From positions 189,909-253,908 of the forward strand of contig CAWJLE010000002.1 of assembly GCA_963843645.1 (NCBI GenBank): DNA of 64,000 bases, read 5' to 3'. Shown piece by piece: positions 3,976 through 61,744 of this stretch. The position numbers and the translations under genes are program-made. Every line of letters starts with the position of its first letter. Within the stretch, counting starts at the first letter, position 1. The notes under the pieces were generated by a model. That model saw only the letters and a list, made by a program, of their open reading frames with translations. It was not told the DNA's origin and made no database searches. Origin of the DNA: an uncultured Chloroflexia bacterium (GTDB taxonomy: Bacteria; Chloroflexota; Anaerolineae; DAOTYC01).

Positions 3976-4023
3976 GCCTGTACGTCTGTCGGTGCAGGAC
4001 GTTGGACTGAGAGGAGCAATGAC

Positions 4024-5223: not shown

Positions 5224-5232
5224 GGGAATCGA

Positions 5233-5339: not shown

Positions 5340-5374
5340 TTAACTGTCTTTCAGAGACGATTGGGGGTGGGGCA

Positions 5375-7711: not shown

Positions 7712-7721
7712 GGGGGGGGAA

Positions 7722-7800: not shown

Positions 7801-8030
7801 GACGTGTTCGGCAAAGAGGGACGAGGTACTACCACTTCTGGAGACTGGCGGCGTCTCCGGGAACGAGCACTGTGTGGTCACGATCGTGTCTCCAGAAGCC
7901 CCGCGCATGGGGATAAAGCTTCATCGAATACCAACAGAAGTCGGTGAAGCAAAGAAGGTCCGACGAATTGGCCCGGGAATCGCCATCGTGCAAACAACAT
8001 GCCGAGTCTGACTTTCTCTACGGGAGGGGG

Positions 8031-8723
8031 ATGCAAGCCAGAATGGACAACGAACGCCTGACACAGAAGAAACAGCAGCGCTATGATTTCCTCAAGAAGC
8101 TCTACGATAAGACGGACGGAAAAGATCTTGTTCCCGTAAACTTCGACGGGTTCGCGGAAGAACTGGGTTTGAACAAAGAAGCCACACGTGACGTCATCCA
8201 GTACCTAAAGGGTGAAGGCTTAGTGAGGCAGCACACCCAAGAACTGGTGAGCATTACGCACGCGGGAGTTCTCGAGGTCGAGGAGACGATGGAGCATCCA
8301 GATAGGCCGACGTCCCATTTTCCGCCCGGTGTCAACATCCTGCATATCGAGACCGTGAAAGACTCGCAAATACAACAGGGGACCTTCGCCTCGTCGCCCC
8401 AAATCCAATTCCGTGATGACGAGATATCAAGAGCCTTTGCCAGCCTATTACAACAGGTTGAGTCGTTGGCAGAAGGACCAGACAAGCGTGACGCCAAACA
8501 TGCGGTGGAGATGCTTGAAGAAGAGGCACGCAAAGGCACACACGCTCATGAAGGAACCGTGCGGAGGTGGCTCAATTTCCTTCTCGAAACTGCCCCAGCC
8601 GCCGGGGAAGTCGCGGTGACCACCTTCATCAATCCAATTGCCGGAGTGGCTAAAGTATTCCAGAAGGTAGCAGAGAAGGCGAAACAGGAAAGAGAACAAG
8701 GCGCCCATCATGGCCCGAACTGA
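8031..8723 (+). CDS. winged-helix (wHTH) DNA-binding protein with uncharacterised C-terminal domain; first gene of the low-GC island
   Basis: ATG after GGGAGGGGG RBS. N-terminus (KKLYDKTDGKDLVPVNFDGFAEELGLNKEATRDVIQYLKGEGLV) is a typical wHTH. GC ~50% vs ~68% in flanks. Confidence 0.65.
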   Translation: MQARMDNERLTQKKQQRYDFLKKLYDKTDGKDLVPVNFDGFAEELGLNKEATRDVIQYLKGEGLVRQHTQELVSITHAGVLEVEETMEHPDRPTSHFPPGVNILHIETVKDSQIQQGTFASSPQIQFRDDEISRAFASLLQQVESLAEGPDKRDAKHAVEMLEEEARKGTHAHEGTVRRWLNFLLETAPAAGEVAVTTFINPIAGVAKVFQKVAEKAKQEREQGAHHGPN

Positions 8724-8771
8724 GCATCCTGCGAAGAACCTCGCCACTGGAAACCTCAGCGGAGGCGACAG

Positions 8772-9719
8772 ATGAGCGACAAGCAGAACGATGATATCCT
8801 GCAGTCCACGACGCCCAAACCTTTTGTGTTCGTCTTGATGCCCTTTGATCGGTCATTTGACGACATTTACAAGTTCGGAATTAAGGGCGCAGCGGAGCAA
8901 GTTGGAGCCTATGCAGAGCGGGTAGACGAGCAGATCTTCACTGAAGGTATTCTCGACAGGATCTTCAGCGAGATCAACAAGGCTGATGTAGTGGTTGCAG
9001 ATATGACAGGGCGAAATCCCAACGTGTTCTACGAGGTCGGCTATGCCCACGCTCTGGGCAAGATCGTGCTGCTGGTGACAAGAGACGCCAACGACATTCC
9101 CTTTGATCTTCAGCACCAACAGCACACGGTCTATGGCGGGAGCATCGACACATTGAAGAGCGAGCTGGCTAGAAAGCTGCGCTGGGCAATTACCAATCCG
9201 AAGGCAAGATCAGCCGACGTCGTCGTCACTCTGCAGTTCTCGCGACTCGATTCACGCCCGCCCAAAGCGTATATACTTGAGGTGCATATAGCGAATGATG
9301 GGCTTGAGACCATAGAACGCTTCAGTCTGCAGATTGAAGCCCCGCACTATCAACCCAGTAGGGAACCAAAGAATGTCCGTACAGCCGATCTGAGTCTTAG
9401 AGACCATGCTCTTGACCGCTGTGAGACTGAGTTTCTCTCGTTCCCAGACTCGACAAGGACGTCTTTGAAAATGACTTATTGGTCTCCGCATCCTCTCCTG
9501 CCTGGGCAGCGGATCTCGTTAACCAGCAAATTCCGCTACGGACTCGAGTTCCGTGGATTCGACAAGGCCCAGGTCCTCGAGTGGTTCAGAGTCACGTCAA
9601 GCCTAGACAACTCCAAGTTGTCTTGGTCTCTCTATTGTGATCGCCGACCTTCCACAAACGGGCAGCTTTCACTTTCCGAACTATTCGAGGCCGAGCCGTC
9701 GACCTCGGTGTGGCTCTAG
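8772..9719 (+). CDS. nucleoside 2-deoxyribosyltransferase-like / TIR-like (SLOG-superfamily) N-glycosidase-motif protein with unknown ~170-aa C-terminal domain
   Basis: FVFVLMPFD…ADVVVADMTGRNPNVFYEVGYAHALGKIVLLV matches the NDT/DNPH1-type motif (β1-Asp; catalytic Glu in the E-x-G-Y-A motif). GGAGG RBS. Low GC. Confidence 0.65.
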   Translation: MSDKQNDDILQSTTPKPFVFVLMPFDRSFDDIYKFGIKGAAEQVGAYAERVDEQIFTEGILDRIFSEINKADVVVADMTGRNPNVFYEVGYAHALGKIVLLVTRDANDIPFDLQHQQHTVYGGSIDTLKSELARKLRWAITNPKARSADVVVTLQFSRLDSRPPKAYILEVHIANDGLETIERFSLQIEAPHYQPSREPKNVRTADLSLRDHALDRCETEFLSFPDSTRTSLKMTYWSPHPLLPGQRISLTSKFRYGLEFRGFDKAQVLEWFRVTSSLDNSKLSWSLYCDRRPSTNGQLSLSELFEAEPSTSVWL

Positions 9720-35319: not shown

Positions 35320-35931
35320 TCATTCACACAGCTCTCGCAGGCCGCGCACAAACACCTGGAAGCTCTTCGACTGGTTCCGATCCGGGTTCATGTGCGGGGC
35401 GATCCGCCGGGCAGCGGAAATCTTGGCGAGGCCGCTGCGATGATACCCGGCCCGTTGGAGTTCCCGCTCCAGGGCGTCACTCGTCTTGCCGGCGATCTGA
35501 TCGGAGTTGCGGTATTTTGCCCGCCTTGCCAGGTTGACCGGAACTCCGGGGTAGGCAGCGTGCAGGGCTTCCACATCTCCAAAGAACCAGGCCTCCAGCT
35601 CCTTGACCGCCAGCCGGTTCAAGACCTGAACGTGCGAGCTGAACAGAGAGGTCGACCGGGTCGCCAACCGCGCGCGGTGCGCCATTTCTTCCAACGATGC
35701 CTTCAAATCACGGCAATCGCCCTCGTCCGCGTCGAGCAGGACCACGATCCGCCAATCGTCAGGCAGCCAGTTGTGATATGCTCTGAGGAGCCCCGGCAGC
35801 TTCGAGAGGAGGTCGTCCTTGCCCTGATGGGGGTGGATGGCGAACGTGACGGCCGCTCCCACGACCTTGGGCACCAGTATCTGCAGCGCTGCTTCAGACG
35901 AGGACTCTTCCACCAAGAATTCGATGTGCAT
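35320..35931 (-). CDS. DUF4276-family protein (Toprim-like; partner of the upstream AAA_21 ATPase)
   Basis: MHIEFLVEESSSEA…IVVLLDADEGDC…LEAWFFGD carry the conserved E…E, D-x-D and E-A-W motifs recalled for DUF4276. Lower GC (~60%). Confidence 0.7.
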   Translation of the reverse strand: MHIEFLVEESSSEAALQILVPKVVGAAVTFAIHPHQGKDDLLSKLPGLLRAYHNWLPDDWRIVVLLDADEGDCRDLKASLEEMAHRARLATRSTSLFSSHVQVLNRLAVKELEAWFFGDVEALHAAYPGVPVNLARRAKYRNSDQIAGKTSDALERELQRAGYHRSGLAKISAARRIAPHMNPDRNQSKSFQVFVRGLRELCE

Positions 35932-35951
35932 CGGGGCCGTCTTCCTTGGGC

Positions 35952-37178
35952 TCAGTGTTGTGGAATCTTCAGACCACCGGAAGCGGTCAGCGGGTCGCCG
36001 GCGTCGAAGAACCCGCTCATCCAGAGGTTCCCCAGCAGATTGCCCTGGGCCATGAATTCCCTGATGCCTCTCATATCGGCGGCCCGGCGGGCCTGCGTGT
36101 AGCCTCGTTCATCCCGGTAGAGCACCCACAGCTCCTCGGGCTTGAGTCCGTTCACGAAGAAGGGCGAGTGCGTGGTCACCATCAACTGACTGCGGCCCGA
36201 CGCTTCGCGGCATTCCTCGGCCAACTCCGGCAGCAAACGAGGATGAAGGTGGTTTTCCGGTTCCTCTATGCCGATCAGTTGGGGCGGGTCCGGATCGTAC
36301 AGCACCGTGAGGTACGAGAGCATCTTCAGCGTACCATCGGACGCGAATCTGGCCAGAATGGGGCGCTCAAACGGCGCGTCCTTGATCTGCAGCAACAGCC
36401 GGCCATCGGCCATAAGCTCCGCGTCTACCTTCTCCAGCCGCGGTACACGCTCTGACAGTGCCTGGAGAATCTGGGTCAACCGATCCTCGTGTTGCTCTTT
36501 GAGATACTGGATGACGTTCGGCAGGTTGTCCCCGGTGGCCGATAGGCGTTCCTGAGGTCCGGCCTCGGGCACCGCCCGCGCGTTGTCGGCGGTGAGGTAG
36601 GAGAGATACCACCCCGTGATGAAGCGGCGAAGAGCGCTGACGCGTGGGTTCCTGGCCAGTTGGCCCAGTGTGTTCACGGCAAGCATCTCGGACGAGTCCA
36701 GGGTCTCCGACATGCGCTGATCTGTGGCGTCCGGCACCTCGCCACTCACTACCATGCCGCTGCCCATCTGGAAGTCGACGAACCTGAAGGGCCGGCCCCA
36801 CTGCCCGCGTCGCCACTGCAGCCATTCTTCGGTGACGAAGGGGCCCCTCGAACCCTCATCGATGGCCAGATGGTAGGTGATGAGCGGTGATTCGCGCGTC
36901 TCGCGGTATTTCAGCTCGATGACGATGGGACCGTCCGATCCGCGGGTGCGTAGCTCTTTGAACCGTCCGCGGCGGTCCCAGGCCTTGCGCAGGCCGACGG
37001 AAAAGCACTCCGCGAGGAATGCGAACACGTCGAAGAGCGTCGACTTGCCGCTCCCGTTGGGACCGAGCAGAACGGTCAATGGGGTCAGTCCCTTCAGTTG
37101 AAGGTCCCGGAGAGCCCGATAGTTCCTGACCGCCAACGCTTCGATGCGCGGGATGGAGGGCCTGTTGTAGCTGCTCAT
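35952..37178 (-). CDS. AAA_21/ABC-type ATPase (OLD-family-like N-terminal ATPase)
   Basis: Walker [18 protein letters not shown] signature and Walker B/H-loop region …[14 protein letters not shown]…. Stop 20 nt before the DUF4276 start. Confidence 0.85.
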
Positions 37179-37348: not shown

Positions 37349-38675
37349 CTACGTGGACGAAAGTCCGGGGACAGGGGCGGCGCCCTGACTCCGGTCCGGC
37401 TCCGATTCCAGGGCGCGGATCTTGCCGACGCGCCCGATGATGACCGCCAGGATGGACACGAACAGGCCCGACAGGATGAACATCAGGCCGATGCCCCTGC
37501 CCGGGCCGGTGCCGATCATGCGCCCGACGCTCTGGCCCAGCACACCGTTCGGCAGGAGCGCCGGGTTGAACAGGCGGTCCGCCAGGAACCCGGCCGAGGC
37601 AAACGCCAGTATGTAGCCGATCTGCGAAATGGCGGACACCAGCGACCAGGCCCGGCCCTGGCGTTCGTTGTCGACGTTCCGGCGGATGAGCACCTCCAGG
37701 CTCGTGTTCGCGAACGGCAGCGTGGCAAAGAACAGGAAGCCGAAGACGATGATCCACTTGACTGACGTGAACAGGCCCATGCAGGCATAGCACAGGCCGG
37801 CCAGCGCGAGGAACAGCGAGAGCATGAATACCTTGTTGCCCTTCATGCCGAGCACGCCGATGAACAGGCTGCTGACCATCATCCCTGATGCCGATGCGGA
37901 CAGGGCCACGCCTAACGTCTGTGAGTTGGCGAGGGTCAGCATCATGGGACCGTACAGCGATTGCAGCAATCCGATGTAGAAGCAGAGCACGGAGGTCAAC
38001 ACCACCAGCCACAACACTCCTTGCTGCGCCGTGAGGTAGCGGAAGGAATCGCGCATATCGTGGAAGAACGTCTGTGTCTCGTGCTTCTGGGGAGCGGCAT
38101 ACGGCGTCCCGATCAGCAAAACCGCGGCTACCGCGATCAGGAAGGTGGCGATGTCGATCGCCAGGACCCACTTCACGTCGTACACGCTCATCAGCAACCC
38201 GGCGACGATCGGGGAGATGGAGATACTGCGCCGATCCCGCCAGCTGAATCAGGCCGCTGGCCTGGGAGTACAGCTCTTCGGAAACCAGATCGGTGACGGC
38301 GGCCTTGTAGGCGGGGCTCTGAATTGCTGCGAACACCGCGCTCATGGCCACGCCGACGTAGATGTGCCACACTTCCAGGCGCCCCGACCCCATGGCCAGC
38401 AGGATGAACAGCAGTCCGCTGATGGCGCCCGCGTCCCCTACGATCATCATCTTCCGGCGATCGAAGCGGTCGGCCAGCACTCCGGCAAACGGCAGCAGGA
38501 CGAACGTCGGCAGAAACGCGAACAGAATCACCAGGGAGTAGCTCGTGGCCGACTGGGTCTTCTGAAAGACGAAGACCCCCAGGGCGAACGCGGTGAGCCC
38601 GCTGCCGATGGCTGAGATCAGCTGTCCCAGCCAGACGACGAGAAATCTCTTGAAGGTTCGATCTGGAGTGTTCAA
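37349..38675 (-). pseudogene. MFS transporter (EntS/macrolide-efflux-like), frameshift near 38215; TTG start overlapping upstream stop (TTGA)
   Basis: N-terminal half (…VWLGQLISAIGSGLTAFALGVFVFQ…LADRFDRRKMMIVGD…) and C-terminal half (ORF 37349..38197) are in different frames. Confidence 0.65.
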
Positions 38676-39580: not shown

Positions 39581-40192
39581 TTACATGAACGAGAAGGTTC
39601 CCGGGGCGGCACGGAGCGCCCGTTCGATGACGGCCTGCATGGCTCGAGCGCGCTTCATCTGCTCGTCCTGATTCCAATCGAAGAGGCCCGATTCCAGCAG
39701 GAACTGGGATCCCGCCAGCAGGAACTGCACGGTTTCGAGCGGGTCTTCCACGTCGAACACGGCTTCCTGCTTGCCCTGTTCGATCACTCGCGCCAGAACA
39801 GGGGCCAGCTCGACGATGGTCACCACGCTGATGCGCTCGTGAAGCTCCCGGTTCTCCGGTCGATGGAGGCTTTCCATCAACCAGTCGCCGTGTTCCGAGG
39901 GCCGGTTTTCTCCCCGCAGGATCTGCCGCAGCTTGTCGACGGCGCCGATGGCGGGGTCGTCGGCGATGGCCTCGTAGTCTTCGCGCAGCCGGTCGACCAT
40001 CGCCTGGGCCAGCGCGACCAGGACGTCTTCCTTGGATTTGAAGTAGTAGTAGAACGTCCCCTTCGCCACGCCCACGTGCTGGACGATCGCGTCCACGCTG
40101 GTGTTGCCGTATCCCTGCTCCGCGAACAGCTCTCCGGCGGCCGCCAGTATCTCCGCTCGCCGCGTCTCGGGATCCTTGGTGATTCTCTTCAT
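39581..40192 (-). CDS. TetR/AcrR-family transcriptional regulator (first gene of tetR-CPBP-MFS operon)
   Basis: ILAAAGELFAEQGYGNTSVDAIVQHVGVAKGTFYYYFKSKEDVL. Confidence 0.9.
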   Translation of the reverse strand: MKRITKDPETRRAEILAAAGELFAEQGYGNTSVDAIVQHVGVAKGTFYYYFKSKEDVLVALAQAMVDRLREDYEAIADDPAIGAVDKLRQILRGENRPSEHGDWLMESLHRPENRELHERISVVTIVELAPVLARVIEQGKQEAVFDVEDPLETVQFLLAGSQFLLESGLFDWNQDEQMKRARAMQAVIERALRAAPGTFSFM

Positions 40193-40205
40193 GTGCTATC
40201 TCCTT

Positions 40206-40259
40206 TGACTGACGGTCAGTCAGTGATTCAAATTATAGCACATGACTGACCGTCAGTCA
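40206..40259. promoter_or_regulatory. two copies of palindromic TetR-type operator TGACTGAC(G/C)GTCAGTCA upstream of tetR
   Basis: ttgactgacggtcagtcagtg … catgactgaccgtcagtcaata, 10-60 nt upstream of the 40192 start. Confidence 0.55.
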
Positions 40260-40304
40260 ATAGGAAAATCGGTGAATTTTGGACGAGTTTGGTCAGCTGG
40301 GAAA

Positions 40305-40338
40305 AAAACTTCCGAAGTTTCCAAAACTTCGGAAGTTT
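40305..40338. promoter_or_regulatory. AACTTCCGAAGTTT / AACTTCGGAAGTTT palindrome pair (site 1 of 5)
   Basis: aaaaacttccgaagtttccaaaacttcggaagtttag read directly. Confidence 0.45.
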
Positions 40339-40366
40339 AGCTGAGGGGTGACGCTCACGCCTCGGC

Positions 40367-40540
40367 GTACGCCGTCCCGGTCACGGTGTCGGCGAGGGCC
40401 CAGAAGTTCTCCAACGGAGTATCGAGCTGGACGTGGTGCGTGGGGCCGAGGATGAGGCCGCCGCGCCGGCCGAGGGTGCGCAGGCGGGCGAGGACTTCGC
40501 CCCGCACGTCGGCGGGGGAGCCGAAGGGCGCTCGGCCAAG
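40367..40540 (-). pseudogene. orphan ~170-bp duplicate of the 3' end of the UroD-family gene 42412..43527 (gene fragment)
   Basis: gtacgccgtcccggtcacggtgtcggcgagggcccagaagttctccaacgga…gggggagccgaagggc is identical to 42424-42586 except for 2 mismatches. Confidence 0.6.
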
Positions 40541-40543
40541 TGC

Positions 40544-41671
40544 TCAGGCGTAGAGCCAATCTTCCTCTGAGGAAACCGGCAAGTCGTCGCAAGCGCGGGC
40601 GTGAAGCCAACCCAAGGCTCCAAGATCTCGAATTGCTGTCGCGACCGTCTTTTCGTCCAGAGGCGGTGTTCGCCGTTGCTTCCATTGCATAACTTCCGCA
40701 AGTACCTCACACTCGGTCGGCTGTGTGTCTCTGGCCGCCCGTAGCGCGCGGGCCGTGAACAGCACGGTGGCGGTCACCTCGGCCTGCTGCGTGTCCATCC
40801 GCAGGAACAAGTCAGCCACTCTGTTCAGAATAGATTCCCATTGTTGCAGATGCTCGGCGTAGGACTGGCGAGCATCGGAAAAGGTCGGTCCGACGTTGAC
40901 GGCGAACATTTGACCGAGACGAGATTCGACGATTAGCCCGTTGTTTACTAATCTTGTGACAACTCCCTTGAGCGCAGGAGCGAACGGGCCATAGCTGCTC
41001 CGCTTATACTCGAGCCCGGTAGGAATTCCCTCTTGTGTCGCCACATAGGCGATCTTCTGGAAGGTGGTTCGACCTACCGGCCAGTGGTACGGTTGCTCTT
41101 CGATGCGCCGAAGAATGTCGACGAGAGCCACCAGCCCCGCATGCACCCAGCGCGGCTCCGGCATGCTGACCCCATTGGCATCAGGCGTCTCCCGAGCCAG
41201 GAAAGCCGGCTGCAACTCCTCGTGTGGGGTACCGTAAGGGGCATACAGCTCTATCGGAATCTCCAGGCGACTGAAGCGGCGATACAGCGTCGGTCCCACG
41301 ATGCGCCACTCAAGCTGACCCTCGCCACAGCCGAGTGGCGGAACCGCCAACGAACTGATGCCCCAGGCCTGGTAGTTTTCGAGGAGGTAGTCGACGCCTT
41401 GCACGATGCTGTCCAATCGAGCAACTGACCGCCAATGGTCCTTCGTTGGGAAATTCAATACCCAGGGAAAGACGAGACGCTTGTATAGATAGGGGCGGCC
41501 GAGTCGGACTTCGCGCCGCTGGCAACGGCGAACGTAATCTGCGAACATCTCTGGAAAGCGGGTTTTGAACCCTAACGCGATGCCCTTGCCCATTACACCG
41601 ACGCAGTTCACCGTATTCACCCAGGTTTGGGCATTGGATTCGAACATGTCGCCAATCAAAACCTTTATCAT
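40544..41671 (-). CDS. darG: DarG-like antitoxin (N-terminal macrodomain + C-terminal DarT-binding domain)
   Basis: MIKVLIGDMFESNAQTWVNTVNCVGVMGKGIALGFKTRFPEMF… macrodomain. 375 aa. Immediately downstream of the DarT-like gene. Confidence 0.75.
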   Translation of the reverse strand: MIKVLIGDMFESNAQTWVNTVNCVGVMGKGIALGFKTRFPEMFADYVRRCQRREVRLGRPYLYKRLVFPWVLNFPTKDHWRSVARLDSIVQGVDYLLENYQAWGISSLAVPPLGCGEGQLEWRIVGPTLYRRFSRLEIPIELYAPYGTPHEELQPAFLARETPDANGVSMPEPRWVHAGLVALVDILRRIEEQPYHWPVGRTTFQKIAYVATQEGIPTGLEYKRSSYGPFAPALKGVVTRLVNNGLIVESRLGQMFAVNVGPTFSDARQSYAEHLQQWESILNRVADLFLRMDTQQAEVTATVLFTARALRAARDTQPTECEVLAEVMQWKQRRTPPLDEKTVATAIRDLGALGWLHARACDDLPVSSEEDWLYA

Positions 41672-41688
41672 GGCGTACCCTCCTGTGT

Positions 41689-42279
41689 CTAGCGGAAGAA
41701 TAGAACCGCATTCACTGCTACGTCCAGGGTCGGTGCCAGTTCGTTCAGACTCAATCGAGCCTCTTCACAAGACACGTAGGCGCCCAGGATGTGATGGGGC
41801 GGTACCCGATTAGGGACCAACACCTCAGCACATTTAATCCGCTTCTTCCGCCACTGCTCAATCTGATTGGCGTCCGTCCAGTATGTGGCGAAAACCAGTG
41901 TCTCGTCAACTTCGCTGAGTCCGTAAGGAGATGGGAGGAAGCGCGTATAATTGCTGGCAGCGTTCCCATCTGTGATCACTACCCCAGACAAATCGAGGAT
42001 CGCCTGGCTGACCCGCAACACGCACAATTCCATATGAGAATCCCTGCGTTTGTAAATCATCGGGTTCCTGGCGCAGAGGTACAGATTCACGTATGTGTGG
42101 AGAGGTCGGCCACCAGGTACTGTTTTTCTCGTTCGTATTTCCTGAACCTCAGGCATTGCAACTGAAATTGGTCCCATCGGCTTAGCTCTCTGGTATGAAA
42201 GGATGCCGTGGATCAGGATCGAAGGGACGTTAGCGATGTTGGTTATGTAGTGCAATTCAGGGAGATCTGACCTATTCAT
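41689..42279 (-). CDS. darT: DarT-like toxin (DUF4433 ssDNA ADP-ribosyltransferase)
   Basis: LHYITNIANVPSILIHGILSY… matches the DarT N-terminal hallmark (YHxTHxxNLxSIL). 196 aa. GC ~52-55%. Confidence 0.75.
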   Translation of the reverse strand: MNRSDLPELHYITNIANVPSILIHGILSYQRAKPMGPISVAMPEVQEIRTRKTVPGGRPLHTYVNLYLCARNPMIYKRRDSHMELCVLRVSQAILDLSGVVITDGNAASNYTRFLPSPYGLSEVDETLVFATYWTDANQIEQWRKKRIKCAEVLVPNRVPPHHILGAYVSCEEARLSLNELAPTLDVAVNAVLFFR

Positions 42280-42411
42280 ATTTCATCTTTTCGTGTGGAT
42301 TGGCCAAACCAAACTGCGCACGCAGGCAGAAGCCTCTTGATCAAGAACCATTTGCCTCGAACAGGGTTTGTCTTTAGTTGTGCACGACCTCATTATACCA
42401 CGCTGATGCGA

Positions 42412-43527
42412 CTACAGCGACTCGTACGCCGTCCCGGTCACGGTGTCGGCGAGGGCCCAGAAGTTCTCCAACGGAGTGTCGAGCTGGACGTGGTGCGTGG
42501 GGCCGAGGATGAGGCCGCCGCGCCGGCCGAGGGTGCGCAGGCGGGCGAGGACTTCGCTCCGCACGTCGGCGGGGGAGCCGAAGGGCAGGGTGTGCTGCTC
42601 GTCGACGGAGCCCCAGAAGCAGAGCCGGTCGCCGTAGGCACTTTTCAGGCGCTCCGGGTCCATGCACGCGGGCTGGATAGGGTTCAGGACGTCGAGGCCG
42701 ATGTCGATGAGGTCCGGAATGATGGGTTCGATCGCGCCGTCGGAGTGGTAGGCGACCTTCACCCGCGGATTGACGGCCTTCAGCGTGGCGATGAACTCGG
42801 CCATGCGCGGCTTGAAGAAACGCCGCCACGTGGCCGGCGCGACGAGCATGTGGTGCTGGGCGCCGACGTCGTCGCCGATCCAGATCATGTCGACGCCGAG
42901 CTCCACCAGTCGCCGGGCGGCCGCCAGGTGGTAGCGGAAGGGAATCTCGAAGATGCGGTCGACGAGGTCCGGGTTGAGGGCGAAGTCCATCAGCATCTGG
43001 GCGTACCCACGCAGCGCCCAGGCCGTCTCGAAAATCGTCGTCACCGTGACGCCGACGATCCAATACTCGTCGGCGTACGCGTGGATGACGCGCTCGGCGT
43101 CAGCGTACAGCTCGGGCCGGTGCGGATCGGGCGGCCGGTAGGCGTCGAGGGCGCGCTCGTCGGCCAGGGGGTGGCCGACGATCTCCGTGTAGTGGCCGAC
43201 CCCGAAGCGCGTCTGGTAGGGTGCGTTGCGCCACCCGACGCCCCACTCGTCGGTGTAGGTCTCGCTGTCCTGGCTGAGGGCCTCCATCGCGTAGTACGAG
43301 TTCGCCCAGCCCACCGAGGTCAGCAGCAGGTCCTGATCGAGCAGACGCTCCAGGACGTAGGTGTTGCCGCCGCCGTGCGGATTGTGGCGGGCGCGCTCGG
43401 TGAGCCCCTCGTCGGCCGCCAGGCGGGCGTTGAACTCCGGCGTGAAGCTGGCCTGCCATGGGCAGCGGTCCGGCTCCTCGTGGTGCAGCGCCATGAGTAC
43501 GCGGTCACGGTGTCGCATGAGAGGCAC
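42412..43527 (-). CDS. uroporphyrinogen-decarboxylase (URO-D) family protein (HemE/MtaA-like)
   Basis: 371 aa. URO-D fold motifs …WIGDDVGAQHHMLVAP…, …DVLNPIQPACMDPERL…. Last gene of the minus-strand sugar ABC operon. Confidence 0.8.
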   Translation of the reverse strand: MPLMRHRDRVLMALHHEEPDRCPWQASFTPEFNARLAADEGLTERARHNPHGGGNTYVLERLLDQDLLLTSVGWANSYYAMEALSQDSETYTDEWGVGWRNAPYQTRFGVGHYTEIVGHPLADERALDAYRPPDPHRPELYADAERVIHAYADEYWIVGVTVTTIFETAWALRGYAQMLMDFALNPDLVDRIFEIPFRYHLAAARRLVELGVDMIWIGDDVGAQHHMLVAPATWRRFFKPRMAEFIATLKAVNPRVKVAYHSDGAIEPIIPDLIDIGLDVLNPIQPACMDPERLKSAYGDRLCFWGSVDEQHTLPFGSPADVRSEVLARLRTLGRRGGLILGPTHHVQLDTPLENFWALADTVTGTAYESL

Positions 43528-45784: not shown

Positions 45785-45856
45785 AAACTTCCGAAGTTTT
45801 TAAAACCTCGGAAGTTTGACAGAACCTCGGAAGTTTGACAGAAACTCCGGAAGTTC
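45785..45856. promoter_or_regulatory. four tandem AAC(T/C)TC(C/G)GAAGTT-type half-palindromes (site 2 of 5) upstream of the ABC ATPase
   Basis: aaacttccgaagtttttaaaacctcggaagtttgacagaacctcggaagtttgacagaaactccggaagttcgg. Confidence 0.45.
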
Positions 45857-46872: not shown

Positions 46873-47470
46873 TTCTTCCTCCTTCGTAGAAGAACCCTTG
46901 CTCTGTCTGGTCCGGTTGCCTGCCGGCCGTGGGATCGGCCGCAGGACGGGTATGGGTGGCTAACCACGGCGTGGAACAGCCCGTCAGTGGGGTGTTGCGA
47001 TCACCTCCCTTCAGCTCTGTGAATGAGAGCCGGGCCGGCCGGTGGCGCCCCATTCGCGGGACCACCTGCCGGGACGGCGGTGTAAGTTGGCGGCTGAGAA
47101 ATCGAGATCACGATTATTATAATCCAGTGATCGATGGCCGTCAAGGGCTTTTGCGCAAATTTGCAGATATCATCCGTGGTGGGCCATCCGCGAATGAAAC
47201 GCGAGCGCCCACAATTCTAACGCGATTGCCCCTGCACGTCTCCCCGGAGGTTATTGACAAATGCTGCAGTACCATGCTATATTATTGCCATCAAATTGCT
47301 CCCCCAACTGGTCAACCCCCTCCAGGCTCCGAATCACGTGAGGAGGCTTGAGGGGACATAGCCGGCACCGTTGCCTGGCCGCTAAGCCCCACTCCGGCGG
47401 CGCGTTTTCTGTGAGACGTACGTCAGTGTTACTGGTATTGTCATCCGATCGAAAGGACGCGAAGCCAGAC

Positions 47471-48454
47471 ATGACTACCTCCGCCTTCTCCGGATTCATG
47501 AATCGCCATCGCGACTCAGCCCTGGATATCCTGTTCGTGTTCGTCGTGGTGCAGATCGGCTGCGTCGTGGCCGGACTGGCTTTCCCCGACACTTTCCACT
47601 ACCTTAGCCCGGCCAACATCTCGGTGCAGTTGAAATCCATCCCGGTGCTGGGCATCATCGCCCTGGGCGTCGGGGTGCTGATGATCTCCGGCGAGTTCGA
47701 TCTGTCGGTCGGCGCCAATTACACCTTCACGGCGATCGTTATGGCCACCATGGTGCAAGACGGCAAATCGGCCTTCATCGCGGCGCCGGTCGCGCTGATC
47801 ATCGGGGTGCTCATCGGGCTGCTCAACGGCTTCATCACCCTGCGGTTCAACATCCCGTCCTTCATTGCCACTCTGGGCGCCATGTTGTTCTGGAAGGGCA
47901 TGACCCTGCTGTACCACGGAGCCACGTCGTTCCGTTTCCGGCCCTGAGCAAGCCTTCACGGACCTGATGGCGGGCAGCCGTCGGACCACTGGAGGCGGCC
48001 TTCCTCTGGTTCGTCGCCCTGAGCCTGCTCTTCTGGGCGCTGCTGCATCATCACAAGCTGGGCAATCATTTCTACGCCGTGGGCGGCAATAAGGCGGCCG
48101 CCACCGCGATCGGCATCAACCCCGACCGGACCAAGATGATCGCATTCGGTTTGGCCGGCTTCTGCTCGGCGATGGCCGGCATCCTGGCCACCGCGCGGGT
48201 CGGCAGCATCCTGCCCGGCAGCGGCCTGGGTCTGGAGCTGCAGGCCATCGCCGCCTGCGTGATCGGCGGGCTGGCGCTGACCGGCGGGCGCGGGCACCAT
48301 CCTGGGCATCTTCCTGGGCGCGGCGTTCATGTACACCATCCAGGACGTCCTGCTGTTGGTACGCGCGCCCGGCTTCTACCTGGACATCTTCGTCGGCGTG
48401 CTGATCGTGGTGGCTGTGATCTTCAATGAAGTCGTTGGCCAGCACGGAAAGTGA
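47471..48454 (+). pseudogene. sugar ABC permease (RbsC family), at least two frameshifts (~47940, ~48290)
   Basis: Protein continues across three frames (47348.., 48079.., then …GTILGIFLGAAFMYTIQDVLLLV…). Confidence 0.65.
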
Positions 48455-48461
48455 GGAAGGT

Positions 48462-49245
<784 letters not shown>

Positions 49246-49452
49246 ACCGGGCGCCCCGCGGCTGCCGGCGTCAGGCAGCCGCACCATTCGTCCGAGGAAC
49301 CCCTGCAAGGGGGGCGAGAGGTTCGTGGGTCCGGCATGACGGCTCCATCAGCGTCGAAAGGAGGTGTCAGCGAAGACTATTATTGGGTTGAGACGTGGTC
49401 GATACTCAGGCATTCGGCGTATCTCCCATAACGAAAAAGGAGAAAGTGAAAG

Positions 49453-50424
49453 ATGCGGTCGAGTAAGATCATCAACCTGTTAGTCGTGGCGGCCCTGCTG
49501 CTCGGTGTGGTGGCCATGATTCAAGCGCCCACCGCCCAGGCGGCCGAACCCAAGCCGAAGATCACCCTCATCATCTACACCGCCGCCACCGTCGAGTTCT
49601 TCATCCCTGTCGTGAATGGCGCCAAAGAGGCCGCAGACATGTTTGGCGTGGACCTCGATATTCAGTACGGCGACAGTGATCCGGTCAAGCAGAACAATCT
49701 GATCGAGACCGCGGTCGCGAACAAGGTCAACGGCATCGCGGTCTCGATTCAGGACGACGATGCGTTCGACGAGAGCGTCGCCAACGCCATGAAGGCCGGG
49801 ATTCCGGTGGTCTCCTTCAACGTAGACGACTCGAAGGGCGCGGCCGGCAACGCGCGCATGGCCTTCATGGGCCAGGATTTCGTCGCGACCGGCTATCTGA
49901 TCGCGCAGCGCATGATCAAGGACCACAACATCGGCAAGGGTGACCTGGTCTTCACGCCAGTGGAATGGCCGGAAGCCGTGTATGCCACGCTGCGGTACGC
50001 CGGCGTCAAGAAAGCCCTGGACGAAGTCGGCGCCAAGTCGGAGATGATCGGCACCGGAGCGAACCTGCCGGACGTCCAGACCAAGGAAGTCCAGTATTTG
50101 CTCGGTCACCCCGAGACCAAGGCCATCATCGGCCTCGGTTCCTCGCCGCTGACGGTCGCCCCGAAAGCCATCGAAGAGGCGAAGATGAAGATCCCCCTCG
50201 GCGGCTTCGACCTGACGTCAGGATATCATCGACGGCATCGAGAACGGGACGATCACCGCCACCGTCGACCAGCAGCCGTATTCCCAGGGGTTCTACTCCG
50301 TGGCGCAGCTCGCCCTGTACCTGAAGTATGGCCTCTATCCGTCCGACATGAACACCGGCGGTCTGGGCCTCGTCGACAAGACGAACGTGGCCAAGGTAAA
50401 AGAGTTCGTCGGCAAGTACCGATA
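49453..50424 (+). pseudogene. sugar ABC substrate-binding protein, frameshift near 50220
   Basis: Signal peptide plus PBP fold. C-terminus (…DIIDGIENGTITATVDQQPYSQGFYSVAQLALYLKYG…) is in another frame. Confidence 0.65.
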
Positions 50425-50517
50425 ACTTCGACGATCAGGCCTCGGGGGACTCTCCGAGCCCACTGGCCGTTCGGCCAGCGGGCTGGAAGTCTCCTTACGT
50501 CGGGGAGAGAAGAAGCG

Positions 50518-51746
50518 ATGAATTTGCGAGAGCGGTTCCTCGAAGTCATGCAGTTCAACACGGGCGTGCATTCCATCAAGTGGGAATTCGGCTACTGGGG
50601 CGAAGTGCTGGACAACTGGTACGAGGCCGGCCTGCCCAAGCAGCATTATCCGGAGATCCCCGTCGGGCACAACCCCACGTCCGGGCTGTACCACGTCGCG
50701 TGGAAGTCGGTCAAGGGCGGCAGGCTGCCGAAAGGCATCGCCGTGATGGGCGGCGGCCTGTACTGGCCGACGCAGAGCTTCCCGATCGACCACGACGTGC
50801 GCGCCTACTTCGGGATGGACACGCCGCTCCGGCTGGTGGACGTGAACCAGATTTTCTACCCCAGTTCAAGGTCGAAGGTTCTGGAGGAAGACGAGAAGCA
50901 GATGGTCTACGTCGACCTGGACGGCGTCAAGCGGCGCTTCCTGAAGGCCACGGCGACCATGCCGTCCGGCGAAGGCTACCCCATCCGCGACCGGGCCACG
51001 TGGCAGAAGCTGAAAGAAGAGCGCTCAGGCATGGACAACTCACGGCCGCTTCCCGCCCAACTGGGACGAGCTGACGCAACGAATACCGCAACCGCGATTA
51101 TCCCCTGGCGCTGATGGGCTACCCACACGGTTTCTTCGGCATTCTGGCCAACCTGATGGGCTACGAGAACCTGTTCTACTCCTATCACGACGATCCGGCG
51201 CTGATCCACGACATCGTCAACACGTTCACTGAGCTGTGGATCGCCCTGTACGAGGAGGTGCTGCGGGACACGGACGTCGACTGCGTGCACATCTGGGAGG
51301 ACATCTCCTACGGCCGCGGCTCGATGATCTCGAAGGACGTCGTGCGCGAGTTCATGCTGCCGTACTACAAGCGCTTCACCGGCTTCCTGAAGGGCAAGGG
51401 CGTGAAGAACATCTTCGTCGACACAGACGGCGACTGCTGGGACCTGATCCCGCTGTTCATCGAGGGCGGCGCGACGGGCATGTACCCGTTCGAGACGGCT
51501 TGCGGCATGGACATCGTCAAGGTGCGCCGGACCTATCCGCAGCTCCAGATGATGGGCGGCATCCCCAAGTCGGACATCAGCCGGCGCGACCGCGTCGACG
51601 AGTTCCTGGGCCCCGTGGAAGAGGTCCTCAAGACGGGCGGATACATCCCCTACGGCGACCACTTCATCCCCCCGGACGTCACCTGGGACGGCTTCAAGTA
51701 CTATCGCACCCGCCTGAACGACCTGATCGACAAGTACGGGCAGTAG
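50518..51746 (+). pseudogene. URO-D-family protein (paralogue of 42412..43527), two frameshifts near 51030-51080
   Basis: N-terminal part MNLRERFLEVMQFNTGVHSIKWEFGYWGEV… and C-terminal part MGYPHGFFGILANLMGYENL…IWEDISYGRG… are in different frames. Confidence 0.6.
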
Positions 51747-51764
51747 GGGCGCCTGCTTGTTCAG

Positions 51765-53490
51765 AGCCGGCCCCCCGGACTTCTGTCATTCTGAGCTGCA
51801 ATATGGTCCGCGGCGGACCACTGATTGGGCAAGAAACAGACTCGCGGGCGGTGAGGTGTATGTGTATAATGGGGGGCGAGTTCAGACAGTTAAGACCGGC
51901 GCCTCATTGGTGCGCACGAGCCCGTCTCTGAGCTTGGTTCCGACTATTAGTGACTCATTGATTGGTGGCGTAGACCCCGGTTAGTAGCATTCCGAGTTCG
52001 TACGAGATAGTCGGGTCTGGACTCTGTGCAGCGAGATATTTAACCTAGAGTAGAGGTGAGTCCATGAGTCAGAAGACCAGTCGTCGCCCCCGCGTGGCGC
52101 CCGCCCCCGTGTTGGAACAGTTGAATCTCGATGCCGCCGGGCTAGATATCGGCGCCAGCGAGATCTACGCCTGTGTGCCGGGGGACCGGACCGACCAGCC
52201 GATTCGGGTGTTTCGCACGTATACGGCCAGCCTGCATGAGTTAGCCGATTGGCTGGCCCAATGTGGGATCAAAACCGTGGCGATGGAATCGACGGGCGTG
52301 TATTGGATCGCGGTGTACAACATCTTGGAAGCGCGTGGCTTCGAAGTCTATCTGGTCAATGCCCGCCACCTCAAGAACGTGCCAGGGCGCAAGTCGGATG
52401 TATCGGATTGCGAGTGGTTGCAGCAACTGCACAGTCACGGCTTGTTGCGGGCCTCGTTTCAGCCACCGGCCGAGATCTGTGCGTTGCGGACCCTGGCGCG
52501 CCAGCGCGAGAGCCTTATCAAGTCGCAGGCGAGCCATATTCAGCACATGCAGAAAGCGTTGCAAGTGATGAACGTCAAACTGAGCGAGGTCGTGTCGGAC
52601 ATCACGGGCCTGACCGGGCAGCGCATCATCCGGGCCATCCTGGCGGGCGAGCACGAGCCCGGCCGCTTGGCGCAGTTGCGTGACCCGAAGTGTGCCAAGA
52701 GCGAGGCGGAGTTCGCCCTGGCGCTGGCCGGCACCTACCAGTCCGAGCAGGTGTTCGTCCTGCAGCAAGCTGTGGCGCAATACGATTTCTTCCAGGGCCA
52801 ACTCCAGGAGTGTGATGCGCAACTGGAGGCCGTGTACGCCCAACTGCCACCGGCCACGCCGGGCGCCAACTGCCCGCCCCCAGCGGCCCGAACGACCAAA
52901 CGGCGCAAAAACCAAGCTCACTTTGATCTGTCGGGCCACCTGTATCAGCTGACCGGCGTGGACCTGACGGCCATTGATGGCCTGGGGGCCTTAACCGTCC
53001 ACACGATCATCTCCGAAGTGGGGGTCGACCTGACCAAATGGGAGACGGCCAAACACTTCACGTCCTGGCTCGGCCTGGCGCCGTGTCCGGAGAAATCGGC
53101 CGGCCAGGTCCTCCATACGGGCACCAAGAAGACCGACAACCGGGCCAATCAGGCCTTCCGCCTGGCCGCGCAGAGTGTGAGCCGCAGCCAGTCGTCGATC
53201 GGGGCCTGTTACCGCCGCTGGCGCGCCCGCTTTGGTGCCGCCGAAGCCATCACTGCCACGGCCCACAAATTGGCCCGCATCTTTTACAAACTGCTCAAGG
53301 ATCACGTGCCCTACAAGGATCCGGGCCCAGACGACTACGACCGCAAACACCGGGCCCGCACCATTCGCAACTTGGAACGCAAGGCCAGCGCCGTGGGTAT
53401 GCGCGTGGTACCGATCGACATACCTCTTGTTTCTTAGTAGGAGCGCCGTTCAGCGACGAAGAATGACAGAAGTCCGGGGGGCCGGCTCGC
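51765..53490 (+). mobile_element. IS110-family insertion sequence with short terminal inverted repeats
   Basis: GCCGGCCCCCCGGACTTCTGTCATTC at 51768 and its reverse complement GAATGACAGAAGTCCGGGGGGCCGGC at 53458 bracket the transposase gene. Confidence 0.75.
52064..53437 (+). CDS. IS110-family transposase
   Basis: N-terminal DEDD-type motif LDIGASEIYACV. C-terminal Transposase_20 motif …FTSWLGLAPCPEKSAGQV…. Confidence 0.9.
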   Translation: MSQKTSRRPRVAPAPVLEQLNLDAAGLDIGASEIYACVPGDRTDQPIRVFRTYTASLHELADWLAQCGIKTVAMESTGVYWIAVYNILEARGFEVYLVNARHLKNVPGRKSDVSDCEWLQQLHSHGLLRASFQPPAEICALRTLARQRESLIKSQASHIQHMQKALQVMNVKLSEVVSDITGLTGQRIIRAILAGEHEPGRLAQLRDPKCAKSEAEFALALAGTYQSEQVFVLQQAVAQYDFFQGQLQECDAQLEAVYAQLPPATPGANCPPPAARTTKRRKNQAHFDLSGHLYQLTGVDLTAIDGLGALTVHTIISEVGVDLTKWETAKHFTSWLGLAPCPEKSAGQVLHTGTKKTDNRANQAFRLAAQSVSRSQSSIGACYRRWRARFGAAEAITATAHKLARIFYKLLKDHVPYKDPGPDDYDRKHRARTIRNLERKASAVGMRVVPIDIPLVS

Positions 53491-53566: not shown

Positions 53567-53600
53567 GACTTCCGAAGTTTTCAAAACTTCGGAAGTCTCA
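53567..53600. promoter_or_regulatory. GACTTCCGAAGTTTTCAAAACTTCGGAAGTC palindrome (site 3 of 5), 20 nt upstream of the FGGY kinase start
   Basis: Read directly. Confidence 0.45.
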
Positions 53601-55384: not shown

Positions 55385-55417
55385 GACTTCCGAAGTTTTC
55401 GAAACTTCGGAAGTCCT
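55385..55417. promoter_or_regulatory. GACTTCCGAAGTTTTCGAAACTTCGGAAGTC palindrome (site 4 of 5)
   Basis: Read directly. ~110 nt upstream of gene 55527. Confidence 0.45.
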
Positions 55418-61677: not shown

Positions 61678-61744
61678 AAACTTCCGAAGTTTTGGGAACT
61701 TCGGAAGTTTGGAAATATTGGAAATTTGGACACATCGGAAGTCT
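61678..61744. promoter_or_regulatory. AACTTCCGAAGTTTTGGGAACTTCGGAAGTTT palindrome pair plus GGAAAT repeats (site 5 of 5), abutting the gpsA RBS
   Basis: Read directly. Confidence 0.45.

What the first reader, a model, noticed from the sequence alone, without database searches (positions are those of the whole stretch)
40367..42586. DarT/DarG toxin-antitoxin cassette inserted at the 3' end of a UroD-family gene, with ~170-bp duplication of the gene end
darT (DUF4433 hallmark YHITNIANVPSILIHGILS) and darG (macrodomain) lie on a ~1.9-kb lower-GC segment. The segment is flanked by two copies of the last ~170 bp of gene 42412..43527: an in-gene copy at 42424-42586 and an orphan copy at 40367-40540 with 2 mismatches. 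This is the footprint of a site-specific integration that regenerates the target gene's 3' end, as with tRNA-targeting islands. Here it targets a protein-coding gene, and no integrase remains.
Basis: partly seen in the sequence, partly recalled or inferred. Interest (0 to 1): 0.6.

Follow-up and report, generated by a model that had tools for sequence, protein, structure and literature searches.

The report
DarTG cassette displacing a gene's end
A foreign 1.9-kb DarT/DarG toxin-antitoxin (anti-phage) cassette sits just inside the end of a UroD-family gene, and 164 bases of that gene are duplicated on its far side; this is a real insertion scar, but it looks more like homology-driven "3'-end displacement" than the work of a lost integrase.

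Summary
A 164-nt direct repeat (40366-40529 and 42423-42586, 2 mismatches, spacing 2057) brackets an intact darT (41689-42279) and darG (40544-41671), both on the minus strand. The cassette is compositionally foreign (GC3 0.60/0.67, against 0.84-0.94 in the neighbouring genes).

The repeat stops 11 nt before the stop codon. The working gene ends ...AYESL*, and the orphan copy ends ...AYAEA* at the homologous codon. 17 nt after the orphan stop lies a genome-specific REP-like hairpin with a U7 run, which is the operon's native terminator. Both mismatches are derived in the orphan copy.

The integrase reading is weakly supported:
- None of 49 scanned ORFs in the window is an integrase.
- None of 80 UroD homolog loci has an orphan 3' end.
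- Neither the closest DarTG relatives nor the viral contigs show an integrase, a UroD gene or a matching att-like segment.
- The cassette is flush with the repeats (14 nt after darG).
- 164 nt of species-specific identity is atypical for an att core.

My best reading is an integrase-independent duplicative insertion anchored on UroD homology (a Campbell-type single crossover or homology-facilitated illegitimate recombination). This resembles the C-terminal displacement known at Rhs, CDI and T6SS loci. No empty site could be found, so the mechanism remains inferred. DarTG itself is a known system. Interest is modest.

The parts
42412..43518 (-). UroD-family gene (368 aa from the ATG at 43518). 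It is the last gene of a conserved operon of solute-binding protein, ABC ATPase, permease and UroD. It is intact.
   Evidence: Pfam URO-D 6e-27. It is identical to P0121. The operon order is conserved in many Chloroflexota loci.
42423..42586 (-). In-gene copy of the 164-nt repeat (codons for ...LPFGSPADVRSEVL...TGTAY).
   Evidence: At both mismatch sites it carries the state shared with the relatives L163 and L164.
42412..42422 (-). The last 11 nt of the working gene (tail ...ESL plus TAG). It is unrelated to the orphan tail and is probably cassette-borne.
   Evidence: It matches 8 of 12 nt of the tail of relative L163. Its shape fits the family's usual Y-x-x-L* ending.
42280..42411 (-). darT upstream region (47.7% GC). 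It holds an extended -10 box, TGGTATAAT, at 42400-42392 (12 nt after the UroD stop) and an imperfect palindrome at 42324-42357 that may be an operator.
   Evidence: Sequence read; regex hit at -121 from the ATG; palindrome I12; GC content. The leader has no significant RNA fold.
41689..42279 (-). darT (196 aa), a ssDNA thymidine ADP-ribosyltransferase toxin. The conserved motif KCAE(152)VLVP is present.
   Evidence: Pfam PF14487 2e-36; PADLOC DarT 2e-39. It matches PDB 7omu and 7omv. Motif position.
40544..41671 (-). darG (375 aa), a macrodomain antitoxin with the DarG C-terminal domain. The motif NFPTK(77)DHW is present. It lies 17 nt after darT.
   Evidence: PADLOC DarG 5e-85 over residues 1-351; Pfam Macro. 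It matches PDB 7omu, 5m3i and 5m31. K77 is invariant in 35 relatives.
40530..40543 (-). 14-nt spacer between the darG stop and the orphan repeat. This is the right-hand junction of the insert.
   Evidence: The junction is present in the independent Logan contig L081.
40366..40529 (-). Orphan copy of the 164-nt UroD 3' segment. It has no start codon and begins mid-codon. It carries two derived substitutions, one of them non-synonymous (S to G).
40355..40365 (-). Orphan tail (...AEA plus TGA). It has the same length and the same stop codon as the tail of the closest relative, L164. It is inferred to be the native end of the gene.
   Evidence: 8 of 12 nt identical to L164; chance estimates.
40306..40338 (-). 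REP-like palindrome followed by a T7 run. It is the intrinsic terminator of the operon and now also ends the DarTG transcript. It belongs to a genome-specific repeat family found at 5 sites in the window.
   Evidence: 16 half-site matches against 0.04 expected. RNA fold -30.7 kcal/mol, z = -4.6, followed by U7. Only the palindrome is conserved among the copies.
39581..40260 (-). Native downstream neighbour: a TetR-family regulator (39581-40192) with a promoter (TTGACT-17-TATAAT) inside an 18-nt perfect palindrome (40205-40260).
   Evidence: Pfam TetR_N and TetR_C_39; promoter scan; inverted repeat I4.

Best explanation
This is a recent, integrase-independent, duplicative insertion of a compact, self-contained DarTG module. 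The module consists of its own extended -10 promoter, darT and darG (1893 nt).

Before the event, the UroD-family gene ended ...TAYAEA*, followed 17 nt later by the REP-type terminator. The incoming DNA carried DarTG joined to a UroD 3' segment ending ...YESL*. It recombined through that homology. The most likely route is a single (Campbell-type) crossover of a circularised fragment, or homology-facilitated illegitimate recombination of a fragment from a close relative.

The result is as follows. The working gene now reads through the 164-nt anchor into the cassette-borne three codons and stop. The old anchor, the old tail and the terminator were pushed 2057 bp downstream as an orphan. The orphan has since picked up two substitutions.

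Functionally, DarT ADP-ribosylates thymidines in ssDNA and DarG reverses and neutralises this, acting as a toxin-antitoxin and abortive-infection defence. Transcription comes from the cassette promoter, plus read-through from the operon, and ends at the old operon terminator.

Shown: the anatomy, the foreign composition, gene integrity, both junctions, derived changes in the orphan, and the terminator. Inferred: which tail is native, the recombination route, and the donor.
For: - Repeat and junctions.
- Foreign composition of exactly the unique 1893 nt.
- At both mismatch sites the in-gene copy matches relatives L163 and L164, so the changes arose in the orphan (one is non-synonymous). This fits an unselected displaced copy.
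- The two copies differ by 1.2%, while relatives with 90% amino-acid identity differ by about 9-15% over the same nucleotides. The anchor on the incoming DNA therefore came from the same lineage, or was later homogenised.
- The orphan tail has the same length and TGA stop as the closest relative (8 of 12 nt). It is followed at 17 nt by a genome-specific REP hairpin with U7, the typical native gene end in this genome.
- The cassette margins are flush with the repeats, and the promoter starts 12 nt after the UroD stop.
- There is no integrase among 49 ORFs. The cassette has no terminal inverted repeats. DarTG relatives share no conserved termini.
- The UroD 3' end is not a recurrent site: 0 of 80 loci.
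- Comparable bracketing duplications of other targets occur at some chromosomal DarTG loci: L093, L138, L103 and L085.
- Published precedent: 3'-end or C-terminal displacement that leaves orphans, attributed to homology-facilitated illegitimate recombination, at T6SS, Rhs and CDI loci (PMC5361080, read).
Against: - No empty site and no donor allele (...YESL*) was found, so the direction of the event and the native tail are inferred.
- Identity falls abruptly from 99% in the anchor to 4 of 12 nt in the tails. This needs an extra assumption: an earlier breakpoint at that spot in the donor lineage, or later gene conversion between the copies.
- The in-gene tail YESL* fits the family consensus Y-x-x-L* better than the orphan tail does. 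That could mean the in-gene tail is the native one.
- The enrichment of bracketing repeats at DarTG loci is weak. At 80 nt or longer it is 5/44 against 4/138 in controls (p = 0.04), or p = 0.06 against pooled controls. It is 0/25 in viral contigs.
- A circular intermediate is hypothetical.
Confidence: 0.45

Rival explanations
1. A genomic island integrated site-specifically into the UroD 3' end using a tyrosine integrase. The 164-nt repeats are attL and attR. The integrase and the rest of the island were then lost, for instance by excision of a tandemly accreted partner element. That would leave an integrase-less, CIME-like DarTG remnant.
For: The geometry matches that of islands that regenerate the 3' end of their target: direct repeats, an intact gene and foreign composition. 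Accretion followed by excision could leave neat att-flanked remnants (my own knowledge of CIMEs in streptococci, not tested here). Both tails look like genuine UroD tails, as expected if the element carried a captured gene end.
Against: No integrase among 49 ORFs. No orphan UroD end in 80 homolog loci. No viral contig carries the segment. The closest DarTG relatives lack integrases. Only 14 nt of non-coding DNA lies on one side of the cassette. 164 nt of identity over a sequence that varies by 9-15% among the nearest relatives would confine such an element to one species.
Confidence: 0.2
2. One-step illegitimate capture. A foreign 1.9-kb fragment with no homology to the host was ligated into a staggered break, or into a stalled replication fork, 8 nt before the UroD stop. 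Fill-in synthesis then produced a 164-nt target duplication. On this view the ...ESL* tail is a fortuitous in-frame closure.
For: It needs only one event and no conspecific donor. It explains why the two copies were initially identical and why homology ends abruptly at both borders. The family's C-terminal tail is highly variable, so almost any short tail would be tolerated.
Against: Target duplications of 164 nt are not a known outcome of bacterial end-joining (my own knowledge). The chance of an in-frame stop at exactly the homologous codon is about 4%, and the tail also matches the tail of relative L163 at 8 of 12 nt, which has a chance probability of about 0.3-2%.
Confidence: 0.15
3. DarTG is an older resident downstream of a gene whose native tail is ...YESL*. 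The orphan copy arose later through a local tandem duplication of the segment running from the anchor to the darG end. A deletion then fused the second anchor copy to the DNA in front of the terminator.
For: The in-gene tail fits the family consensus Y-x-x-L*. The junction between the darG end and the anchor has exactly the form of a tandem-duplication joint.
Against: It needs two events with one endpoint exactly at the anchor/tail border. The orphan tail would then match the tail of L164 in length, in its TGA stop and at 8 of 12 nt only by chance. The unameliorated composition of DarTG argues for recent arrival.
Confidence: 0.1
4. Assembly artefact. Two strain variants (UroD followed by DarTG, and UroD followed by TetR) were chained together through the shared 164 nt.
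For: The source is a metagenome-assembled contig. Several genes in the window show apparent frameshifts.
Against: The junction from the darG end into the UroD anchor, including the orphan-specific base at 40501, must exist in real DNA. It is reproduced at 100% identity in an independent k-mer assembly of ERR11571143, on one contig that also spans the UroD tail to darT junction. The exact repeat blocks are at most 79 nt long.
Confidence: 0.04

Closest known systems
DarTG toxin-antitoxin / anti-phage defence system (DarT ssDNA ADP-ribosyltransferase plus DarG macrodomain glycohydrolase)
   Same: Both proteins match their family profiles over full length. The gene order is darT then darG, with a 17-nt gap. 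The key motifs are conserved: KCAEVLVP in DarT and NFPTKDHW in DarG.
   Different: There is nothing unusual in the proteins themselves; the closest relatives are 70% identical and spread over many phyla. Activity was not tested.
C-terminal / 3'-end displacement with orphan modules at Rhs, CdiA and T6SS effector-immunity loci (PMC5361080 and the work it cites)
   Same: An incoming module recombines through a conserved anchor in the upstream gene. It supplies a new gene end plus linked downstream genes. The old end is pushed downstream as an orphan preceded by a copy of the anchor. No integrase is involved.
   Different: The displaced tip here is only three codons, not a toxin domain. The host gene is a metabolic UroD-family gene. 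The cargo is a TA/defence pair rather than an immunity gene. There is a single event, not an array.
Integrase-mediated genomic islands that regenerate the 3' end of their target gene (tRNA, tmRNA and some protein-coding genes), and their integrase-less derivatives (CIMEs)
   Same: Direct repeats made from the target's 3' end, an intact target gene and cargo of foreign composition.
   Different: There is no integrase or excisionase, no room for arm sites and no recurrence at this target. The identity block is very long and species-specific. The whole element is just one TA operon.
Campbell-type single-crossover insertion / homology-facilitated illegitimate recombination (de Vries & Wackernagel 2002; Prudhomme 2002; Meier & Wackernagel 2003, as cited in PMC5361080)
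   Same: A one-sided homology anchor leads to insertion of heterologous DNA next to it. The duplication of the anchor is what a single crossover of a circle produces.
   Different: These processes are known mainly from laboratory transformation experiments. Here they are only inferred from the scar. The donor and the circular form are hypothetical.

Membership tests
DarTG toxin-antitoxin system | A toxin with the DarT (DUF4433, PF14487) domain | tested here: met
   Pfam 2.2e-36, residues 10-182 against profile positions 1-183 of 201. PADLOC DarT 1.7e-39.
DarTG toxin-antitoxin system | The catalytic glutamate of the ART fold in DarT | tested here: met
   E152 lies in KCAEVLVP, a motif kept in all DarT relatives read here. 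It aligns to the same motif in PDB 7omu. That this Glu is the catalytic residue rests on my knowledge of the published Thermus DarT work.
DarTG toxin-antitoxin system | An antitoxin with an N-terminal macrodomain plus the DarG C-terminal domain, encoded immediately downstream of darT | tested here: met
   PADLOC DarG 4.8e-85 over residues 1-351. Pfam Macro over residues 18-125. K77 of NFPTK is invariant in 35 relatives. The gap to darT is 17 nt.
DarTG toxin-antitoxin system | DarT toxicity that is reversed by DarG; protection against phage | not testable with these tools
   This needs expression experiments.
Integrase-mediated integrative island (site-specific) | A tyrosine or serine recombinase gene inside or beside the element | tested here: not met
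   No integrase among 49 ORFs across the 64-kb window. The only recombinase is an IS110 DEDD transposase at 52064-53437 with its own inverted arms.
Integrase-mediated integrative island (site-specific) | Direct repeats (attL and attR) derived from the target | tested here: met
   164-nt repeat, 98.8% identical.
Integrase-mediated integrative island (site-specific) | The same target is used recurrently in related genomes, or attP is found on a free element | tested here: not met
   0 of 80 UroD homolog loci have an orphan 3' end. There are 0 matches in viral contigs. Close DarTG relatives sit at unrelated sites. No conspecific genomes were available.
3'-end (C-terminal) displacement by homology-anchored recombination | A copy of the conserved anchor precedes both the working gene end and the displaced orphan end, and the two ends differ | tested here: met
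   The anchor is 164 nt in two copies. The tails, ESL* and AEA*, share 4 of 12 nt.
3'-end (C-terminal) displacement by homology-anchored recombination | The new end and the linked downstream genes arrive together as foreign DNA | tested here: inconclusive
   The composition break coincides with the unique 1893 nt. However, 11 nt of tail is too short to assign, and no donor was found.
3'-end (C-terminal) displacement by homology-anchored recombination | The displaced tip encodes a polymorphic toxin domain with a cognate immunity gene (the Rhs/CDI/T6SS sense) | tested here: not met
   The tip is three codons long and the host is a URO-D family enzyme. The locus resembles the mechanism but is not a member of those loci.
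Transposon / IS-borne cassette | Terminal inverted repeats, a short target-site duplication, and a transposase | tested here: not met
   There are no inverted repeats at the insert borders. Relatives share no conserved ends. The duplication is 164 nt.
Integron gene cassette | An attC site at the 3' end of the cassette, with an IntI integrase nearby | tested here: not met
   Only 14 nt separate the darG stop from the UroD anchor, and no IntI is present. No dedicated attC model was run.

The most novel reading that the evidence does not exclude
Small defence or TA cassettes such as DarTG may travel between related genomes without any recombinase of their own. They would carry along a piece of the neighbouring conserved gene or promoter, and that piece would act as a portable homology anchor. 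Each landing would displace and duplicate the target segment. The resulting repeat-flanked state could loop out by RecA as a roughly 2-kb circle and re-insert elsewhere, while the toxin-antitoxin pair penalises loss. The window would be a fresh example (98.8% repeats). L093, L138, L103 and L085 would be older or inter-lineage examples (84-90% repeats) at type I restriction loci and other sites.
Probability: 0.2. Interest if true: 0.55.

Novelty: new member of a known kind. Interest (0 to 1): 0.3.

Why it matters
DarTG itself is well known, so the value lies in the scar. It is a clean, recent and fully resolvable example of how a two-gene defence module enters a housekeeping operon without any mobility gene and without breaking the host gene. 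If this homology-anchored displacement route proves general, it would help explain a common puzzle: many defence systems sit alone, outside recognisable mobile elements. It would also give a sequence signature for finding such events, namely an orphan gene end or promoter copy on the far side of the cassette. For this window alone the finding is ordinary biology, neatly preserved.

Tried and rejected
1. Empty-site search. The exact UroD, ABC, TetR, CPBP and HEC-01 proteins occur only on the source contig (308,789 bp) and on short Logan contigs from one run. The two closest UroD relatives (L163 and L164, about 85% nucleotide identity) are not syntenic downstream. No comparator was obtained.

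2. Deciding the native tail from the family consensus. This was indecisive. Y-x-x-L* favours the in-gene tail. The nearest relatives end ...YGAV*...YGSVEL* and ...YRSLPA*. Each window tail matches one relative at 8 of 12 nt.

3. The idea that a REP insertion created the orphan tail. Rejected: only the 34-nt palindrome is conserved among the five REP copies.

4. The idea that DarTG cassettes have conserved ends, as a transposon or attC-bearing cassette would. Rejected.

5. The idea that bracketing repeats are a general DarTG property. The signal is only weak in chromosomal loci (5/44 against 4/138 in controls, p about 0.04) and absent in viral loci (0/25).

6. A link to the nearby IS110 element. 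Rejected: it shares no sequence with the cassette borders and has its own inverted arms.

7. A structured RNA in the darT leader. None was found (z = 0.19).

8. Literature search for DarTG with direct repeats and integration. Nothing specific was found.


Full report
**Observation**

A 164-nt direct repeat lies at 40366-40529 and 42423-42586. It is 162/164 identical with a spacing of 2057 and occurs nowhere else in the window.

Two minus-strand genes lie between the copies:
- darT (41689-42279): Pfam DarT 2e-36, PADLOC DarT 2e-39.
- darG (40544-41671): PADLOC DarG 5e-85 over residues 1-351, Pfam Macro.

Both genes look intact. DarT keeps the KCAE(152)VLVP motif. DarG keeps NFPTK(77)DHW, which is invariant in 35 relatives.

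The right-hand copy is part of a URO-D family gene (42412-43518, 368 aa; Pfam 6e-27). This is the last gene of an operon encoding a solute-binding protein, an ABC ATPase, a permease and UroD. That operon order is conserved in many Chloroflexota genomes.

The unique DNA between the copies (40530-42422, 1893 nt) is 55.7% GC, against 63.8% for the window. GC3 is 0.60 for darT and 0.67 for darG, against 0.84-0.94 in the neighbours. The orphan copy ends at 40529. The repeat does not reach the end of the gene.

**The tails**

The last 11 nt differ between the copies. The working gene ends GAG TCG CTG TAG (...AYESL*). The orphan ends GCC GAG GCG TGA (...AYAEA*). The stop falls at exactly the homologous codon.

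- Across 80 homologs the common ending is ...PY-x-x-L*, which favours the in-gene tail.
- The closest relatives instead end ...TAYGAV* (L164)...TPYGSVEL* (L163) and ...YRSLPA*.
- Each window tail matches one of these relatives at 8 of 12 nt (chance about 0.3-2%).

Both therefore look like genuine UroD ends, and the consensus cannot say which one is native.

**What points to the orphan as the old, native end**

(i) At both mismatch positions the in-gene copy shares its base with L163 and L164. Both changes are derived in the orphan, and one is non-synonymous (S to G). This fits an unselected, displaced fragment.

(ii) 17 nt after the orphan stop lies a palindrome, AAACTTCCGAAGTTT-TGG-AAACTTCGGAAGTTT, followed by T7. 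It folds at -30.7 kcal/mol (z = -4.6) and has the form of an intrinsic terminator. The same palindrome occurs at five intergenic sites in the window (16 half-site matches against 0.04 expected). It is a genome-specific REP-like element, and only the palindrome itself is conserved among the copies.

(iii) After the in-gene stop the DNA is AT-rich, like the cassette (47.7% GC). It starts 12 nt later with a perfect extended -10 box, TGGTATAAT, so the darT promoter abuts the gene end.

(iv) On the other side only 14 nt separate the darG stop from the orphan copy.

The insert is therefore a minimal module of promoter, darT and darG. It supplies three codons and a stop to the host gene and borrows the old operon terminator.

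**Is it real?**

A Logan contig from run ERR11571143 (L081, 1982 bp) is 100% identical to window 42452..40471. It covers the UroD tail to darT junction, the whole cassette and the darG to orphan junction, including the orphan-specific base at 40501. It ends inside the repeat, as a k=31 assembly must. The mismatches leave exact blocks of only 55, 79 and 28 nt. A chimeric assembly is therefore very unlikely.

**Testing the integrase reading**

- I scanned 49 ORFs spread over the whole window with Pfam. None is a tyrosine or serine recombinase.
- The only recombinase is an IS110-family DEDD transposase at 52064-53437. It sits between its own perfect 29-nt inverted arms and shares no sequence with the cassette borders.
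- No tRNA gene is present.
- None of 80 UroD homolog loci (median about 10 kb downstream) holds an orphan copy of its own 3' end.
- No viral contig carries the UroD segment.
- The closest DarG relatives (69-71% identity) lie in three unrelated contexts. None has an integrase, a UroD gene or a bracketing repeat.
- DarTG relatives share no conserved sequence upstream of darT or downstream of darG, so nothing resembles transposon ends or an attC site.
- The 164 nt are poorly conserved: about 85% nucleotide identity to L163, and about 9% divergence even in a relative with 90% amino-acid identity. An att site needing this identity block would be usable in one species only.
- With 14 nt of spacer on one side there is no space for arm sites or for the remains of a deleted integrase module.

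An accretion-and-excision history (a CIME-like remnant) is not excluded. Nothing found here speaks for it.

**Other DarTG loci**

Among 80 metagenomic DarG loci, 41 had both genes and usable flanks. Twelve showed some direct repeat between the upstream and downstream flanks, and five had one of 80 nt or more.

- L093: about 90 nt of the hsdM promoter and leader is duplicated on both sides of DarTG.
- L138: about 135 nt of the 5' end of a type I restriction gene recurs before darT and twice after darG.
- L103: copies of a small secreted-protein gene alternate with DarTG and a second TA pair.
- L085: a two-part unit A-B precedes DarTG, and A' and B' flank a HigBA-like pair downstream.
- The repeat identities at these loci are 84-90%.

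Random pseudo-cassettes in control loci gave 4/138 at 80 nt or more and 16/138 for any hit. With three further close relatives added (0/3), Fisher's p is 0.04 for repeats of 80 nt or more, or 0.06 against pooled controls. In viral contigs 0 of 25 DarTG loci have a repeat of 50 nt or more. Duplicated target segments therefore do recur at some chromosomal DarTG sites, with different targets each time. They are a minority feature, and the statistics are only suggestive.

**Mechanism**

The geometry is anchor, new end, cargo, anchor, old end. A single crossover between a circular molecule carrying the anchor and the chromosome produces exactly this. It is also the pattern described as C-terminal displacement at Rhs, CDI and T6SS effector-immunity loci. 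There, incoming modules recombine through a conserved upstream stretch, push the old end downstream as an orphan, and no integrase is involved. Homology-facilitated illegitimate recombination was proposed for those cases (PMC5361080).

I therefore favour a homology-anchored, integrase-independent duplicative insertion. The fragment would come from a close relative in which DarTG already lay behind a UroD allele ending ...YESL*.

The weak point is the abrupt fall from 99% identity in the anchor to 4 of 12 nt in the tails. It requires either an older breakpoint at that spot in the donor lineage or later gene conversion between the two copies, which cannot spread beyond the shared 164 nt.

The rivals, in order:
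1. Integrase-mediated insertion with neat loss of the integrase.
2. One-step illegitimate capture with a 164-nt fill-in duplication, in which the ESL* tail is fortuitous.
3. A resident DarTG followed by local duplication and deletion.
4. An assembly artefact.

**How it works now (inferred from family knowledge)**

DarT ADP-ribosylates thymidines in single-stranded DNA and arrests replication. DarG removes the modification and also neutralises DarT. The pair acts as a toxin-antitoxin and abortive-infection defence.

Here the pair is transcribed from its own promoter and probably also by read-through from the transporter/UroD operon. Transcription ends at the displaced REP terminator.

Recombination between the 164-nt repeats would delete the cassette and restore a single gene copy. 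The toxin-antitoxin pair may counter-select such loss. This last point is speculation.

**Verdict**

The finding is real and neatly resolved. DarTG is a known system, and the insertion mode has known analogues, though it has not to my knowledge been described for DarTG (one search found nothing specific). The direction and route of the event stay inferred because no empty site or donor could be found.

Noticed in passing
window 51764-53488: An IS110-family (DEDD) transposase gene lies at 52064-53437. It sits between perfect 29-nt inverted arms (51764-51792 and 53460-53488), 18 nt after the stop of a second UroD-family paralog. It looks like an IS110 element inserted into the centre of a palindromic terminator or REP-type hairpin.
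   Followed up: partly
window 47348-51746 and 37349-38640: There are apparent frameshifts in a second, divergent ABC-transporter/UroD cluster: the solute-binding protein near 50215 and the UroD paralog near 51075. Its permease and ATPase ORFs are truncated. The MFS transporter next to the CPBP protease also has one, near 38215. These are either real pseudogenes or indel errors in the assembly.
   Followed up: partly
window 40306-40338, 45785-45854, 53568-53596, 55386-55414, 61678-61710: A genome-specific REP-like palindrome family (ACTTCCGAAGTTT ... AAACTTCGGAAGT) sits just after gene ends. There are 16 half-site matches against 0.04 expected. The copy at 40306-40338 folds as a strong terminator.
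   Followed up: yes
window 35320-37178 (minus strand): A second candidate defence system lies 3.4 kb from DarTG: a HEC-01A-type AAA ATPase (PADLOC 6e-171) followed by a DUF4276 protein. Their GC3 is about 0.79, slightly below the native genes. TetR, a CPBP protease and the split MFS gene lie in between.
   Followed up: partly
L088 1128-4152: On a metagenome contig, an 80%-identical HEC-01A homolog and its DUF4276 partner are followed directly by a full-length DarG (63% identity) with no DarT gene. This may be a solo antitoxin or anti-DarT immunity gene attached to another defence system.
   Followed up: no
L085 3311-7103; L103 6738-10582; L138 3377-6293; L093 2367-4556: These are chromosomal DarTG loci in which pieces of the target are duplicated around DarTG, and around further small TA pairs. 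The duplicated pieces are a promoter, a gene's 5' end and a whole small gene. The copies are 84-90% identical. They look like arrays built by successive displacement.
   Followed up: partly
window 761-9719: Several large ORFs have no Pfam match on either strand (761-7700). They are followed by ORFs with a TCAD2 domain (7944-8723) and a nucleoside 2-deoxyribosyltransferase-like domain (8772-9719). This may be another conflict or defence region.
   Followed up: no
window 40205-40260: An 18-nt perfect palindrome (TTGACTGACGGTCAGTCA / TGACTGACCGTCAGTCAA) encloses the TetR promoter (TTGACT-17-TATAAT, 11 of 12 matches). It is a likely TetR operator.
   Followed up: no
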